The position numbers and the translations under genes are program-made. The notes beneath the pieces were generated by a model. It had not been told where the DNA came from and did no database searches. It saw nothing but the letters and a program-made list of their open reading frames with translations. DNA of 20,000 nt from an uncultured virus (IMG/VR IMGVR_UViG_3300025066_001240) (taxonomy: Duplodnaviria; Heunggongvirae; Uroviricota; Caudoviricetes): the IMG/VR virus record IMGVR_UViG_3300025066_001240; one strand, 5' to 3'. This document shows positions 2,633 through 9,098 of the stretch, in pieces. The first letter of the stretch is position 1; each line of letters begins with the position of its first letter.

Positions 2633-2696
2633 AGGTACCTGAGGGAATCGAACCCCGTTACAAAGGTGCTGCTCTACCTAATTGAGCTAAGGTACC
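2633..2696 (-). pseudogene. tRNA-Thr (TGT)-derived element with internal deletion
   Basis: Perfect GGTACCT/AGGTACC acceptor and D-arm; GCACC-TTTGTAA runs directly into the T-arm, so the 3' anticodon strand and variable loop are missing (64 nt total). Confidence 0.75.
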
Positions 2697-2713: not shown

Positions 2714-3121
2714 TCACAAATCACAATTCTTCTTCTCATCGAGGAACTTCTGGATTAGTTGTCCAGCGACCCCTTTCATCGTGGTCTTTCCCCTATCAGT
2801 TAGCTCGTAGTGGAATTCACCTTCCGGACCAATCAACTGATCAATCAAACCCTTCTCCATGAGACCTTTAAGGGTTTCGTCCACCGCGTTGGAGACAGAA
2901 TCATATGTTAGAGTCATTTGTTTCAAACCAATAGGGTCAGCATCAACCTCGTACTCAAGGGCCTCAAAAATCACTTCGTCTGGATTAACGTTTAGTTTTT
3001 CTAGCCTCTCAATCCACTCCATAGCCAACTCAGCATCCTCGTAAACCCCAAGGGGATCAACGCTGACGGTAAGACCGTTGTCCTCTATCTTCACAAGAAT
3101 GTAGACAATTTCTCCTGACAT
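2714..3121 (-). CDS. acidic protein with C-terminal winged-helix-like segment
   Basis: TLKGLMEKGLI....YELTDRGK resembles the end of a winged HTH; AGGAG upstream. Confidence 0.6.
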   Translation of the reverse strand: MSGEIVYILVKIEDNGLTVSVDPLGVYEDAELAMEWIERLEKLNVNPDEVIFEALEYEVDADPIGLKQMTLTYDSVSNAVDETLKGLMEKGLIDQLIGPEGEFHYELTDRGKTTMKGVAGQLIQKFLDEKKNCDL

Positions 3122-3156
3122 TATTATAATCTCCTAAGAAATTCACGTCTGCCGTA

Positions 3157-3171
3157 TGTTATACACAAAAA
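3157..3171 (-). promoter_or_regulatory. class B promoter motif TTTTTGTGTATAAC
   Basis: Recurs at 3888-3902 and 4578-4592 upstream of gene starts. Confidence 0.6.
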
Positions 3172-3214
3172 CCACTAAGAATCGTCAATTTACCTAAAAA
3201 AGACAAAGTACCCT

Positions 3215-3838
3215 CTAACTGCCTGTTGTCAAGTGTCTCGCATGAATCCTTTGTACCATTGTTAAAAATTGCGAAGTCGTCAAGCCCCTCTTCGCCAGAT
3301 TGCAATCCTCACAAGAAGTTCTACAATTACCTTCTACATACCCCTTAGAGTTATCGATCCTGTCTATGCCGGATAGACTCCTCCTTGAATAACTAGCACC
3401 TCCAGTTTGTCTGGATCTATTATTAGAAGGCTCTAGTCCACAATACCAGCAATCTTTAGTTACAAATGATTTAAACTGATCAAACGATAATTCAAAGTCC
3501 CAGCCCTTCTTTTTACATTTACTCTTGTAGTTGGAATATACTATTGCTGTATGTCTGTCAATGTCGTTGTCGTATTTTAGTCCGTTTTGGTTCCCAAGAA
3601 GCCTACTAGACTTACAATCGTTACAACATATTGTATTTCTACTCACGGTTGCCTTAGCTATAAGGACTCGACGGGTGAACTCTTGACACTTGCCACAAGA
3701 GCACCTACATAAGTACAAATAGTCGTACCTGTGTTTTCCCCATGTTGCTTTGGGACGGACCGCACCTACGTATGTTTCTACGGTAAGTTCTCCAACGGTG
3801 AAACCAAGTAACTCTTCAGCCTTTTCGTTGTCCAACAT
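3215..3838 (-). CDS. free-standing HNH-type homing endonuclease-like protein
   Basis: N-terminal G.LTV...YLCRCSCG module plus CWYCG...GIDRIDNSKGYVEGNC..C..CN, typical of phage homing endonucleases. Confidence 0.82.
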   Translation of the reverse strand: MLDNEKAEELLGFTVGELTVETYVGAVRPKATWGKHRYDYLYLCRCSCGKCQEFTRRVLIAKATVSRNTICCNDCKSSRLLGNQNGLKYDNDIDRHTAIVYSNYKSKCKKKGWDFELSFDQFKSFVTKDCWYCGLEPSNNRSRQTGGASYSRRSLSGIDRIDNSKGYVEGNCRTSCEDCNLAKRGLTTSQFLTMVQRIHARHLTTGS

Positions 3839-7441: not shown

Positions 7442-7918
7442 TCATAATATAACATCTTTCCAGTCAGTACAATACTGACCCCAATACTGACGACTATCAA
7501 CATCGATTATTTGTACGTCCCACTGGTTAACGTCTGGCGAAGGGTATTCCTCATATAGAGACTCACAGTAATCAACCTCTTCAACAAGATGGCACATGAT
7601 GTTCTCCATGAAGAACTCAATCTCGTTCTCATAGTTTTTTAGTGAGCAGGAGAATGTCCACCACTCACCGTCAAACTCAGAGCCGCCCTCTTTAGGTCCG
7701 TACTCGTCTCGTGAAGGCTCGAAGGGTTCCCCGAAGTCATCTGGCATGTACGCCAGCACCCCAAAAGGAATGAACCCACAGCGACCGTGCATGATCCAGT
7801 CGATGACGTTGGGAACACTTACGACGGTCCAATCACCATAATCGTGTAGCTTTTTGATCGCATCACGATGCTCTGGCTTGATCTTGACCCTCGACCTTAC
7901 ACCCGTATACATTCCCAT
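7442..7918 (-). CDS. phage hypothetical protein (MGMYT...CSLKNY pattern)
   Basis: 158-aa ORF, GGGAG RBS; N-terminal MGMYT and SLKNY..EIE.F pattern recalled from other phage hypotheticals. Confidence 0.75.
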   Translation of the reverse strand: MGMYTGVRSRVKIKPEHRDAIKKLHDYGDWTVVSVPNVIDWIMHGRCGFIPFGVLAYMPDDFGEPFEPSRDEYGPKEGGSEFDGEWWTFSCSLKNYENEIEFFMENIMCHLVEEVDYCESLYEEYPSPDVNQWDVQIIDVDSRQYWGQYCTDWKDVIL

Positions 7919-7949
7919 TAATTGTCTCCCTTGTGAAACCTATATCTAA

Positions 7950-8360
7950 TTCCGAAACAAATCCTCTGTGCGTACCGACTACGTTTATACCTGTGAAGAA
8001 CTAGGTAGCCCCCACAGATACATTGGTAGTGTTAGTGAACAGTGTGGTCTTTAATACTGGTGGAATACGGTGCTAACAGCGAAACAATGCTTTTCTTCAC
8101 AGGTCTAGGGTGTCACGCTAAGACAGTGCCTAGTTTTTAGGGTTGCCACACCTTGGAGCGGTCGGTCGCTCTCCGGTTATTCACTCTTTCACAATGGGTA
8201 AGAACGAGAAACTTCACCCTATTACGTTTTTGGTACGAATTCTTGTGAATCGATAATTCGGGACTACCATAATTATCTAATACCGCTTGAGGATTATAGT
8301 GCCGAGACACCTATTCCCCAAACGATACTTATCACTTAGACAGAACTGTGACAAAGTATG
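7950..8360 (-). ncRNA. candidate large structured non-coding RNA (boundaries approximate)
   Basis: 478-bp gap without a long ORF, containing about ten helices including a 12-bp perfect stem (7989-8000/8093-8104), a crossing helix and a long-range closing stem; G-U pairs favour the minus strand. Confidence 0.65.
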
Positions 8361-8396
8361 CCCTGAAGACATGTCTGTGACACAACTTTGACATTA

Positions 8397-9098
8397 CTAT
8401 ACCTCTAAGATGTTGCCATTACTACTTAATTCCCCAATTTTATCATCGGTAACACAACTGCCGTTGCTGAAGGTAGTTATTAATTGAGGTAACTTCATAG
8501 TTCCGGCATTATTGATCAACTTCATAGTTCCGGCATTATTGATCAACTTCGCATTGTGAACGTGACCGAAGCAGTGAGCTATCGGCTCGACCTCCCAGAT
8601 TCGCCTCAGGAGGCTCTTACAGCCAACCTGTACCAAACCACCCTCCATCGCTTCTGTGAGGTCTAAGACCGTCTGTGGAGGCCCGTGACTGATTACAACG
8701 TCCGAATCAAGAGGTATGGTATTCCAAACCCTCCCAATCTTGTGACGTGCCATCATAAAGTGCCAGTCCCCAAATGTGGGAGTGTAAGGACTGCCCCAAA
8801 TCTTGAGACCCTCGATTTTACGGAAGTCATTTTCAAGATAAGTAATTCCCAACTTCTCTATGTCTTCAGCGTAGACCATGCGTTGGGCGACTGCCGCATC
8901 ATGGTTGCCAGCCACGAGCACCTTGTGCTTAATGGGCAGCATCTGAAACCAATCCAAGAAAGGCCACAGTTCCACGCTATTGGGAATCTTATTCCTGTTG
9001 TCGGTAAAGTCTCCACTGTGGATAACCATACCAACATCGGGCGGCACACTCAGTCTCCCGTGGACCCCGTGCGTGTCTGAAATGTGCCAGATTTTCAT
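8397..9098 (-). CDS. calcineurin-like metallophosphoesterase
   Basis: SDTH, HSGD, AGNHD, SHGPP and FGHVH metal-binding motifs. Confidence 0.93.
   Translation of the reverse strand: MKIWHISDTHGVHGRLSVPPDVGMVIHSGDFTDNRNKIPNSVELWPFLDWFQMLPIKHKVLVAGNHDAAVAQRMVYAEDIEKLGITYLENDFRKIEGLKIWGSPYTPTFGDWHFMMARHKIGRVWNTIPLDSDVVISHGPPQTVLDLTEAMEGGLVQVGCKSLLRRIWEVEPIAHCFGHVHNAKLINNAGTMKLINNAGTMKLPQLITTFSNGSCVTDDKIGELSSNGNILEV
8491..8550. repeat. perfect 27-bp tandem duplication (2.2 copies)
   Basis: AACTTCATAGTTCCGGCATTATTGATC x2 plus AACTTC; encodes KLINNAGTM twice. Confidence 0.95.

What the first reader, a model, noticed from the sequence alone, without database searches (positions are those of the whole stretch)
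7950..8360. Candidate ~400-nt pseudoknotted phage ncRNA in a gap with no long ORF
Seen: the 478 bp between the phosphoesterase and the MGMYT gene are full of helices. These include a perfect 12-bp stem (7989-8000/8093-8104) enclosing nested stems (8021-8025/8085-8089 and 8030-8035/8073-8078), and two helices that cross it (7965-7970/8013-8018 and 7977-7982/8005-8010), implying a pseudoknot or switch. There are also hairpins at 8105-8133, 8155-8174, 8231-8269 and 8325-8359, a stem 8138-8143/8216-8221 and a long-range closing stem 7960-7966/8289-8295. G-U pairs work on the minus strand, the direction of transcription. I see no RNase P, tmRNA or intron hallmarks, and both flanking genes look complete. 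Known: tRNA-rich phages carry large structured RNAs of unknown function such as GOLLD and ROOL. Inference: this is a divergent member of such a class or a new one.
Basis: partly seen in the sequence, partly recalled or inferred. Interest (0 to 1): 0.82.

Follow-up and report, generated by a model that had tools for sequence, protein, structure and literature searches.

The report
New pseudoknotted RNA of T4-like phages
The gap holds a gene for a roughly 300-base, intricately folded RNA of a previously undescribed family that uncultured T4-like phages carry beside their tRNA and tmRNA genes; its function is unknown.

Summary
The 478-bp gap (7919-8396) holds a real structured-RNA gene on the minus strand. 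Its conserved core is 8277->7974 (304 nt).

I found 24 distinct homologues, the window included, with a median pairwise identity of about 60% (measured on 21 of them). On the 24-sequence alignment a model of 9 helices plus 3 pseudoknot pairings holds as follows:
- 93.0% of cells are paired, against 33-44% when the partners are slid.
- 45 of 71 pairs changed on both sides, against 11-19 when slid.
- 0 of 500 shuffles reach these values.

Single-sequence folding energy is not better than shuffles (z -0.96), so the support comes from covariation, not thermodynamics.

Six others pair no better than shuffles.

Rfam gives nothing inside the element in the window or in 13 homologous loci. No reading frame is conserved.

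The RNA follows either a promoter-like -10 box or, in 10 loci, the 3' end of a tRNA gene. Two-piece tmRNA genes lie in the same cluster in 5 loci. Three complete ~170-kb phage genomes carry two paralogues whose tertiary pairings differ in matched fashion.

Verdict: a new class of phage stable RNA. It resembles GOLLD and ROOL in context only, and its function is unknown.

The parts
7974..8277 (-). Conserved core of the structured RNA (304 nt, first base of H1 to last base of the 3' tail pairing)
   Evidence: The nhmmer family profile matches window 8277-7973 at E 1.2e-80. The core is 284-324 nt in the homologues.
8293..8298 (-). -10-like box TATAAT, 15 nt upstream of H1
   Evidence: Read from the sequence. 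-10-like boxes stand at the same place in L104, L116, L117, L121, L131 and the type-2 copies. The promoter scan did not flag it. Function is inferred.
8316..8321 (-). Weak -35-like hexamer TTGGGG, 17 nt from the -10 box
   Evidence: Read from the sequence. It matches the consensus at only 3 of 6 positions. Function is inferred.
8252..8277 (-). H1 hairpin (8277-8271 with 8258-8252); the loop starts with the invariant AUGG
   Evidence: All 7 pairs changed on both sides; 95.2% paired.
8264..8269 (-). PK-A 5' strand (in the H1 loop), pairs with 8029-8024
   Evidence: 3 of 6 pairs changed on both sides; 92.4% paired. The variants are GGUAG/CUACC, GGCUG/CAGCC and GGUUG/CAACU.
8024..8029 (-). PK-A 3' strand
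8243..8249 (-). H2 5' strand, pairs with 8194-8188
   Evidence: 6 of 7 pairs changed on both sides; 77.4% paired on the MAFFT alignment. With a one-column register shift, 6-7 of 7 pairs form in each of 8 sequences.
8188..8194 (-). H2 3' strand
8196..8219 (-). H4 hairpin with a bulged G (8219-8216/8199-8196 and 8214-8212/8202-8200)
   Evidence: 88-96% paired; 3 of 7 pairs changed on both sides. L090/L097 carry an extra inserted hairpin capped by GCAA, and L121 an insertion at the same place.
8179..8185 (-). H5 5' strand (long range), pairs with 8040-8034
   Evidence: 6 of 7 pairs changed on both sides; 98.2% paired.
8034..8040 (-). H5 3' strand
8156..8171 (-). H6 hairpin (8171-8167/8160-8156). 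Its loop 8166-8161 is the PK-B 5' strand.
   Evidence: 3 of 5 stem pairs changed on both sides; 98.3% paired.
7974..7979 (-). PK-B 3' strand (the 3' tail), pairs with the H6 loop
   Evidence: The 4 core pairs form in 24 of 24 sequences, and 2 of them covary: CGAC/GUCG, CGAG/CUCG and CAAG/CUUG. The two outer pairs mostly do not form.
8146..8152 (-). H7 5' strand, pairs with 8047-8041
   Evidence: 4 of 7 pairs changed on both sides; 99.3% paired.
8041..8047 (-). H7 3' strand
8105..8133 (-). H8 hairpin (8133-8129/8109-8105) with inner helix H8a (8125-8122/8114-8111)
   Evidence: H8: 4 of 5 pairs changed on both sides. H8a: 3 of 4. Both are 97-99% paired.
8094..8103 (-). It crosses H5/H7, which makes a pseudoknot.
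   Evidence: 4 of 10 pairs changed on both sides; 98.8% paired.
7990..7999 (-). H9 3' strand
8015..8021 (-). H10 5' strand. This alternative local helix pairs with 7993-7987 and competes with H9 for the CAGG at 7993-7990.
   Evidence: 90.3% paired; 3 of 7 pairs changed on both sides. All three strands changed together in L121, L119 and L131.
8299..8396 (-). Upstream block shared only with the closest relatives (L001/L125, L092). It is not part of the family core. It includes a 54-nt stretch identical between the window and L001, with TGTCA(A/C)AG repeats.
   Evidence: homologues outside this lineage align only from just after the -10 box.

Best explanation
The gap encodes a stand-alone, non-coding, stable RNA of about 300 nt, read from the minus strand. 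It belongs to a previously undescribed family found so far only in uncultured T4-like phage contigs.

The RNA folds into two domains. The 5' domain holds H1, H2 and H4. The 3' domain holds H5 to H9. Three crossing pairings lock them together: H9 across H5/H7, the H1 loop with a strand of the 3' domain (PK-A), and the H6 loop with the 3' tail (PK-B).

It is made in one of two ways: from its own sigma-70-type promoter, as is likely in the window, or as the 3' trailer of a phage tRNA gene. In the second case, tRNA 3'-end processing would free its 5' end.

I infer that it acts in trans through its folded shape, as part of the phage's set of translation-related RNAs (tRNAs and two-piece tmRNA). I also infer that a four-base strand exchange (H9 versus H10) lets it take two conformations.

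What is shown: conservation, the strand, the structure, the absence of coding, and the genomic contexts. What is inferred: expression, processing, action in trans, and the switch. The molecular function is unknown.
For: Homologues:
- There are 24 distinct sequences, the window included, gathered by protein-neighbour and DNA-pattern scans and confirmed by nhmmer at E 1e-37 to 1e-98.
- The 21 type-1 sequences fall into 17 lineages at 90% identity, with a median pairwise identity of 60%.

Structure:
- 24 sequences: 93.0% of 1661 cells paired; 45 of 71 pairs changed on both sides; slid controls give 33-44% and 11-19; 0 of 500 shuffles reach these.
- 19 and 21 sequences give similar figures.

Strand: 90 G-U cells against 14 A-C cells.

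Not coding:
- Indels between the window and L001 are 11, 5, 1, 3, 1 and 1 nt.
- No frame stays open through the core in any of 21 sequences; the longest open stretch is 72 codons.
- Pfam and PHROGs give only chance-level hits, and the one PHROG hit recurs in 0 of 72 stop-free stretches from 18 homologues.

Independent unit:
- TTGAAA-17-TATAAT ends 6 nt before H1 in L116 and L117.
- -10 boxes precede the copies that have no tRNA upstream.
- A TTGACA-17-TATAAT promoter follows the RNA by about 25-35 nt in most loci.

Link to tRNA genes:
- An ARAGORN-called tRNA ends 1-28 nt before H1 in L113, L114, L115, L118, L119, L120, L127, L142 and L150. A cut-off tRNA 3' end does so in L088.
- Permuted tmRNA lies within 1.5 kb in L116, L117, L118, L119 and L150.

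Paralogues:
- Complete genomes G002, G003 and G004 each hold two copies about 20 kb apart.
- The loop and tail sequences of PK-A and PK-B differ between the two copies in a matched way.

Switch: the two 5' strands and the shared 3' strand changed together in L121, L119 and L131. In L131 the H10 loop is only 5 nt and is itself part of the H9 strand, so the two helices exclude each other.
Against: - No expression data.
- Single-sequence folding is no better than shuffles.
- No intrinsic terminator follows the RNA.
- The window's own -35 is weak (3 of 6), and the promoter scan did not flag it.
- In the window, L090/L097, L104 and L088 an ORF with a ribosome-binding site starts 25-55 nt after the core with no obvious promoter between. 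A leader role is therefore not excluded there.
- The structure was derived from these same related sequences and from MAFFT alignments. This favours it over the slid and shuffled controls.
- H2 pairs in only 77-81% of cells without a register correction.
- The outer two pairs of PK-B mostly do not form.
- Covariation cannot tell whether PK-A and PK-B form within one molecule or between molecules.
- Nothing found here indicates a function.
Confidence: 0.7

Rival explanations
1. It is a cis-acting 5' leader (a riboswitch, ribozyme or translational control element) of the gene that follows. In the window that gene is the PHROG 4438 ORF at 7442-7918.
For: In the window, L090/L097, L104 and L088 an ORF with a Shine-Dalgarno sequence starts 25-55 nt after the core with no obvious promoter between. 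The H9/H10 alternative pairing is the kind of feature that switches have.
Against: The downstream gene differs between loci: the PHROG 4438 ORF, a 149-aa ORF, UvdE, an HNH endonuclease, a 187-aa ORF, and others. In most loci a consensus TTGACA-17-TATAAT promoter lies between the RNA and the next gene. H10 is not followed by a U-run, so it is not a terminator. No Rfam riboswitch matches.
Confidence: 0.1
2. It is a very divergent or degenerate member of a known catalytic or housekeeping RNA: a group I intron remnant, RNase P RNA or tmRNA.
For: Its size (about 300 nt), pseudoknotted core and position among tRNA and tmRNA genes are what one would expect of RNase P RNA or of an intron in a T4-like phage. 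An HNH endonuclease gene follows it in L088.
Against: No Rfam hit for any such family at E<=10 lies inside the element in the window or in 13 homologous loci, while the tRNAs and tmRNAs in those same loci are found. The flanking genes are complete and differ between loci, so there are no exons. The 5' and 3' ends do not pair with each other (model). ARAGORN finds no tmRNA in the element.
Confidence: 0.07
3. The conservation reflects a DNA-level element, such as a cluster of promoters and operators or a replication origin, and the helices are incidental.
For: -10-like boxes occur at both ends, and one (GGTATAAT in several homologues) lies inside the 3' part. The block just upstream in the window has repeated TGTCA(A/C)AG motifs.
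Against: 45 of 71 pairs show compensatory changes on both sides. G-U pairs outnumber A-C by 90 to 14, which matters only for RNA of this strand. The long-range pairings covary in step.
Confidence: 0.03

Closest known systems
GOLLD RNA (Rfam family; passages of PMC12286853 read)
   Same: A large, pseudoknotted RNA of unknown function encoded by phages and prophages, often near tRNA islands. One GOLLD studied in that paper lies downstream of a tRNA-Met gene. Tertiary pairings are conserved by covariation.
   Different: No match to the Rfam model at E<=10. About 300 nt, against more than 800 nt. Different helices. Found here in T4-like contigs. Whether it forms multimers is unknown.
ROOL RNA (Rfam family; passages of PMC12286853 read)
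   Same: A phage and prophage RNA near tRNA islands, with multiple pseudoknots, no known protein partner and unknown function.
   Different: No match to the Rfam model. About half the size. No sequence or helix correspondence was seen.
Stable RNAs of unknown function in the tRNA gene cluster of phage T4 (recalled from the T4 literature; not checked in any call)
   Same: Non-tRNA stable RNAs encoded within and co-transcribed with the tRNA cluster of a T4-type phage.
   Different: As I recall, they are much shorter (about 120-140 nt). I had no sequence to compare, so no relation was tested.
Group I introns of T4-like phages
   Same: Similar size, a core built on a long-range pseudoknot, and GNRA-capped peripheral hairpins in some members. 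A homing-type HNH gene lies beside it in one locus.
   Different: It interrupts no gene and has no exons. No Rfam match. I could not map the order of strands onto P3-P8/P7.
Bacterial RNase P RNA
   Same: A 300-400 nt pseudoknotted RNA tied to tRNA biology. It would be a logical companion of tRNA and tmRNA genes.
   Different: No Rfam RNase P match. There is no terminal helix joining the 5' and 3' ends. As far as I could see by eye, the conserved P4-forming regions are absent; that check relies on recall.

Membership tests
GOLLD RNA | Match to the family's covariance model (Rfam) | tested here: not met
   No hit inside the element at gathering score or at E<=10, in the window or in 13 homologous loci.
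GOLLD RNA | Length above about 800 nt, with a universally conserved 3' region (PMC12286853, passages) | tested here: not met
   The core is 284-324 nt in 18 sequences.
GOLLD RNA | Encoded by phages or prophages, often next to tRNA genes | tested here: met
   T4-like gene content in the window. A tRNA ends 1-28 nt upstream in 9 loci, and a cut-off tRNA 3' end in a tenth.
ROOL RNA | Match to the family's covariance model (Rfam) | tested here: not met
   no hit.
ROOL / GOLLD | Homo-oligomeric RNA-only assembly | not testable with these tools
   This needs biophysics or cryo-EM. Covariation of PK-A and PK-B fits pairing within one molecule or between molecules equally well.
Group I intron | Interrupts a gene or tRNA, with exons on both sides | tested here: not met
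   The Metallophos gene and the PHROG 4438 ORF are full length. The upstream tRNAs are complete. The neighbours differ between loci.
Group I intron | Match to Rfam Intron_gpI (conserved P3-P9 core) | tested here: not met
   no hit at E<=10.
Bacterial RNase P RNA | Match to the Rfam RNase P models | tested here: not met
   no hit at E<=10.
Bacterial RNase P RNA | Terminal helix pairing the 5' and 3' ends | tested here: not met
   In the covariation-supported model the 5' end is a local hairpin (H1), and the 3' tail pairs with the H6 loop.
tmRNA | tRNA-like domain and tag reading frame, as found by ARAGORN or Rfam | tested here: not met
   No call inside the element, while genuine permuted tmRNAs are called 0.7-1.2 kb away in the same loci.
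Riboswitch / cis-regulatory leader | Stands in the 5' UTR of one conserved class of genes, in the same transcription unit | tested here: not met
   The downstream genes vary, and a consensus promoter lies between the element and the next gene in most loci.

The most novel reading that the evidence does not exclude
A new class of large functional RNA made by T4-like phages together with their tRNAs and tmRNA. It could be a ribozyme or an RNA-only assembly with a built-in two-state switch (H9 versus H10). Some phage genomes carry two paralogues whose loop-tail and loop-strand pairings have diverged in a matched way, so the two RNAs would fold or assemble without cross-pairing. It would act on the host's translation or tRNA metabolism during infection.
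Probability: 0.3. Interest if true: 0.9.

Novelty: new variant of a known kind. Interest (0 to 1): 0.72.

Why it matters
Large structured RNAs without a known function are rare, and such RNAs have included ribozymes, riboswitches and RNA-only nanocages.

This one has unusually clear comparative support for its size: 45 of 71 pairs covary and three crossing pairings are supported. It sits in the RNA-gene cluster of a phage group with no cultured member (tRNAs, two-piece tmRNA). It also shows two unusual features:
- Evidence for two mutually exclusive helices, both kept by selection.
- Two paralogues per genome with matched changes in their tertiary pairings.

Together with GOLLD and ROOL, it adds a third, unrelated example of large RNAs tied to phage tRNA islands. 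That strengthens the case that such RNAs serve a general but still unknown need of phages that bring their own translation RNAs.

At about 300 nt, the RNA is small enough for direct structural and biochemical study.

Tried and rejected
- **Rfam.** Gathering-score search on the window. Searches at E<=10 on the gap, on 6 homologous loci and on 7 more. Nothing inside the element.
- **GenBank phages by DNA.** The window flank plus gap and two divergent homologues gave no match. At E<=10 there were only 25-29-nt A-rich hits in SPO1-like phages and a Helicobacter prophage. nhmmer finds nothing there, and the matched stretch is low-complexity. Rejected as chance.
- **Coding remnant.** Pfam and PHROGs on 7 gap ORFs. 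tblastn of the 57-aa ORF (one hit at E=7). PHROGs on 72 stop-free stretches from 18 homologues (two unrelated hits at E about 0.006-0.009). Rejected.
- **Prokaryote genome collection.** One pattern scan gave 4 hits. nhmmer shows that all four match only the pattern itself. So I found no bacterial or prophage copy, but only one 3'-end pattern was tried.
- **Pattern scans, chance hits.** 15 of the 22 metagenome hits are chance. In one search, 8 of the 27 viral hits are true full-length family members; 18 gave no profile match at E<=0.01, and L145 matched only 45 profile positions (E 0.0014). L134, L145 and L154 looked protein-coding.
- **A wasted scan.** One viral scan went on a pattern with one N too many. 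It was corrected after a local test.
- **The 80 loci around phosphoesterase homologues.** Only the L001 and L002/L003 contigs hold the element.
- **Covariance model.** Not attempted. The core of about 300 positions exceeds what the calibration limit allows.
- **Earlier notes of this scan.** Nothing.
- **Literature.** Searches listed no description of this RNA. I read passages of PMC9004378, PMC12286853 and the preprint 10.64898/2026.09.22.753630. None mentions it. Supplements were not opened.

Full report
**The region.**
The window is an early-gene region of a T4-like phage, with every gene on the minus strand. It encodes RIIA, RIIB, ribonucleotide reductase, thymidylate synthase, an endonuclease VII/HNH-like protein and five tRNA genes.

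The gap 7919-8396 (478 bp) lies between two complete genes:
- a calcineurin-like metallophosphoesterase gene (8397-9098);
- an ORF of PHROG 4438 (7442-7918).

The longest ORF in the gap is 57 aa.

**Check of the observation.**
Folding energy alone does not mark the region:
- Whole gap: z = -1.78 on the minus strand (5 of 100 shuffles as good) and -0.52 on the plus strand.
- Conserved core: z = -0.96 and -0.75.

The decision had to come from homologues.

**Homologues.**
- GenBank phages hold nothing similar at the DNA level.
- Neighbour-protein scans of viral contigs gave one close relative, L001. It is 81% identical over 435 nt of the gap. A profile search then found a distant relative, L002/L003.
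- A pattern from the 3' end found 7 true loci (5 distinct sequences) among 22 metagenome hits. It found no true copy among 4 hits in the prokaryote genome collection.
- A degenerate pattern over the H6-H7 region found 16 viral loci, all true.
- A third pattern added L142, L150 and the divergent L131.
- Searching five long viral records showed that three complete ~170-kb genomes (G002, G003, G004) each hold a second, divergent copy about 20 kb from the first.

In all there are 24 distinct sequences, the window included. The 21 first-type sequences fall into 17 lineages at 90% identity, with a median pairwise identity of 60%.

All homologues outside the window's own lineage align only from just after the window's TATAAT (8298-8293) to just after 7974. 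The family core is therefore 8277->7974 (304 nt; 284-324 nt elsewhere). The 98 nt upstream (8299-8396) belong to the window's lineage only.

**Not coding, and the strand.**
- Indels between the window and L001 are 11, 5, 1, 3, 1 and 1 nt.
- No frame is open through the core in any of 21 sequences.
- Pfam and PHROGs give only chance-level hits.
- In the structure below, G-U cells outnumber A-C cells 90 to 14. The RNA is therefore read from the window's minus strand.

**Structure.**
I built the model by eye from compensatory changes and then counted it with the pair-counting tool.

| Element | Window coordinates |
|---|---|
| H1 | 8277-8271 / 8258-8252 |
| H2 | 8249-8243 / 8194-8188 |
| H4 (with a bulged G) | 8219-8212 / 8202-8196 |
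| H5 | 8185-8179 / 8040-8034 |
| H6 | 8171-8167 / 8160-8156 |
| H7 | 8152-8146 / 8047-8041 |
| H8 | 8133-8129 / 8109-8105 |
| H8a | 8125-8122 / 8114-8111 |
| H9 | 8103-8094 / 7999-7990 |
| PK-A (H1 loop with a 3'-domain strand) | 8269-8264 / 8029-8024 |
| PK-B (H6 loop with the 3' tail) | 8166-8161 / 7979-7974 |

H9 crosses H5 and H7. PK-A and PK-B cross further helices.

Counts for this model:

| Sequences (call) | Cells paired | Pairs changed on both sides | Slid controls | Shuffles reaching |
|---|---|---|---|---|
| 19 | 94.4% | 39 of 71 | 34-48%; 7-13 pairs | 0 of 500 |
| 21 | 93.0% | 43 of 71 | 33-47%; 9-17 pairs | 0 of 500 |
| 24 | 93.0% | 45 of 71 | 33-44%; 11-19 pairs | 0 of 500 |

The shuffle figures refer to percent paired, pairs changed, cells changed and the covariation score. 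The measure 'further pair types' is weaker: 54, 1 and 1 of 500 shuffles reach it.

Points against the model:
- The structure was derived from these same sequences, which are related to each other. The controls therefore flatter it.
- H2 is only 77-81% paired on the MAFFT alignments, because three to four rows sit one column out of register.
- The two outer pairs of PK-B mostly do not form.

For the crossing pairings the type-2 copies are the most telling. PK-B reads CGAC/GUCG in most sequences, CGAG/CUCG in L121 and L131, and CAAG/CUUG in all three type-2 copies. PK-A reads GGUAG/CUACC, GGUGU/ACACU, GGUUA/UAACC (L088), GGUC/GACC, GGCUG/CAGCC and GGUUG/CAACU.

- Three of the eleven are in this model: the 12-bp stem (H9) and the hairpins 8105-8133 (H8) and 8155-8174 (H6).
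- Six others pair in 57.4% of cells, against 57.7% in shuffles. They are not conserved.
- Two lie outside the alignment and were not tested.

**An alternative helix.**
The four bases CAGG (7993-7990) can pair with CCUG of the H9 5' strand. They can also pair with the local strand 8018-8015, as part of a 7-bp helix H10 (8021-8015 / 7993-7987). H10 is 90.3% paired, with 3 of 7 pairs changed on both sides.

In L121, L119 and L131 both 5' strands and the shared 3' strand changed together. In L131 the H10 loop is five bases that themselves belong to the H9 strand, so the two helices cannot coexist. I read this as selection for two conformations: either a folding intermediate or a functional switch. 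This is an inference.

**Two domains.**
L090/L097 are mosaics:
- Their 3' domain is 92.5% identical to the window's, and 55.6% to L121's.
- Their 5' domain is 45% identical to the window's, and 70.5% to L121's.

Peripheral parts vary. GNRA- or UUCG-capped hairpins are inserted or replaced in H4 and after H9.

**Context.**
- *Upstream, tRNA.* In 9 loci an ARAGORN-called tRNA (Leu-UAA, Arg-UCU or Arg-ACG) ends 1-28 nt before H1. L088 starts with a cut-off tRNA 3' end about 17 nt before H1.
- *Upstream, promoter.* Where no tRNA precedes, a -10-like box does. L116 and L117 have a full TTGAAA-17-TATAAT ending 6 nt before H1. The type-2 copies have -35/-10 pairs with 17-nt spacing. The window has TATAAT with a weak TTGGGG.
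- *Downstream.* Most loci have TTGACA-17-TATAAT 25-35 nt after the core and then a gene. That gene is often UvdE: Pfam-confirmed in L002, and recognised elsewhere by the shared N-terminal sequence in L088, L112, L113, L114, L119, L120 and L150.
- *No promoter downstream.* In the window, L090/L097, L104 and L088 an ORF follows directly.
- *tmRNA.* Permuted (two-piece) tmRNA genes lie in the same cluster in L116, L117, L118, L119 and L150.
- *Type-2 copies.* They stand alone, in L160 and L166 (and L131) near a gene that I judge by eye and recall to resemble the T4 late sigma factor gp55. That assignment was not tested.

Two-piece tmRNA in phages related to pelagimyophages is described in PMC9004378 (passages read). 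The phages here have no close cultured relative: at most 48% aa identity for the phosphoesterase and 31% for UvdE. I draw no conclusion about the host.

**What it is.**
It is a gene for a stable, non-coding, pseudoknotted RNA of a family that Rfam 15 does not hold. My literature searches did not list it either.

It is expressed from its own promoter or as a tRNA trailer. In the second case tRNA 3' processing would set its 5' end.

The closest known things are GOLLD and ROOL: large pseudoknotted phage RNAs near tRNA islands, of unknown function, which form RNA-only cages (PMC12286853, passages). The likeness is in context and kind. The membership tests fail on the covariance model and on size.

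Group I intron, RNase P RNA, tmRNA and riboswitch readings were each tested and not met (see the membership table).

**How it works.**
This part is inference. The RNA most likely acts in trans through its compact fold, during early infection, alongside the phage's tRNAs and tmRNA. The likely target is translation or tRNA metabolism, or a host factor that attacks them.

The matched divergence of PK-A and PK-B between the two paralogues of one genome fits two readings: each RNA folds only on itself, or each assembles only with its own kind. I cannot tell ribozyme, scaffold or decoy apart with these tools.

Noticed in passing
window 8491-8550: A perfect 27-bp tandem duplication (2.2 copies) inside the 3' part of the phosphoesterase gene. 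It repeats nine residues of the protein. The L001 homologue is 10 aa shorter (223 against 233 aa).
   Followed up: partly
window 8299-8396: A block shared only with the closest relatives, including a 54-nt stretch identical between the window and L001 although the surrounding DNA is about 81-86% identical. It holds repeated TGTCA(A/C)AG motifs (2 exact TGTCACAG in the window, more in L001) and a long imperfect hairpin. It could be a regulator-binding or terminator region.
   Followed up: partly
window 2633-2696: Rfam calls a fifth, short (64-nt) tRNA at 35 bits that ARAGORN does not report. The other four tRNAs (Asp, Leu, Gly, Tyr) are called by both tools.
   Followed up: no
L160 1471-1759, L161 1244-1527, L166 1500-1787: A second, divergent paralogue of the RNA in three complete ~170-kb phage genomes, about 20 kb from the first copy. 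It has its own promoter and no tRNA nearby. In L160 and L166 a gp55-like gene (judged by eye and recall only) lies nearby.
   Followed up: partly
L090 2487-2810 and L097 1879-2201: Mosaic copies. The 3' domain is 92.5% identical to the window's, but the 5' domain is of the L121 type. This points to recombination between the two domains. Here the RNA lies after a type I restriction R-subunit gene (EcoEI_R_C).
   Followed up: partly
L088 393-896: An HNH endonuclease gene sits between the RNA and the UvdE gene. In L002, L112-L114, L119, L120 and L150, UvdE follows the RNA directly. This looks like a free-standing homing endonuclease insertion.
   Followed up: no
L116 3536-3850, L117 3544-3858, L118 3008-3327, L119 about 3102-3296, L150 3368-3684: Permuted (two-piece) tmRNA genes in the same RNA-gene cluster as the element. 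Rfam scores them under tmRNA_permuted, with alpha- or beta-type tmRNA as overlapping hits.
   Followed up: partly
L112, about 2634-2660 (just upstream of the element): A T-arm-like and acceptor-like tRNA 3' end precedes the element, but ARAGORN calls no tRNA there. It may be a decayed tRNA gene.
   Followed up: no
L128 2339-2874 (Bacillus phage phi18, MZ751040.1): A 536-bp unannotated gap between phoH and a tRNA-Arg gene in an SPO1-like phage. It came up only through a chance A-rich match and is unrelated to this family by nhmmer.
   Followed up: no
L001 5190-6399: Relative to the window, the closest relative carries four extra small ORFs (149, 121, 71 and 62 aa) and a consensus promoter between the RNA and the PHROG 4438 ORF.
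   Followed up: no
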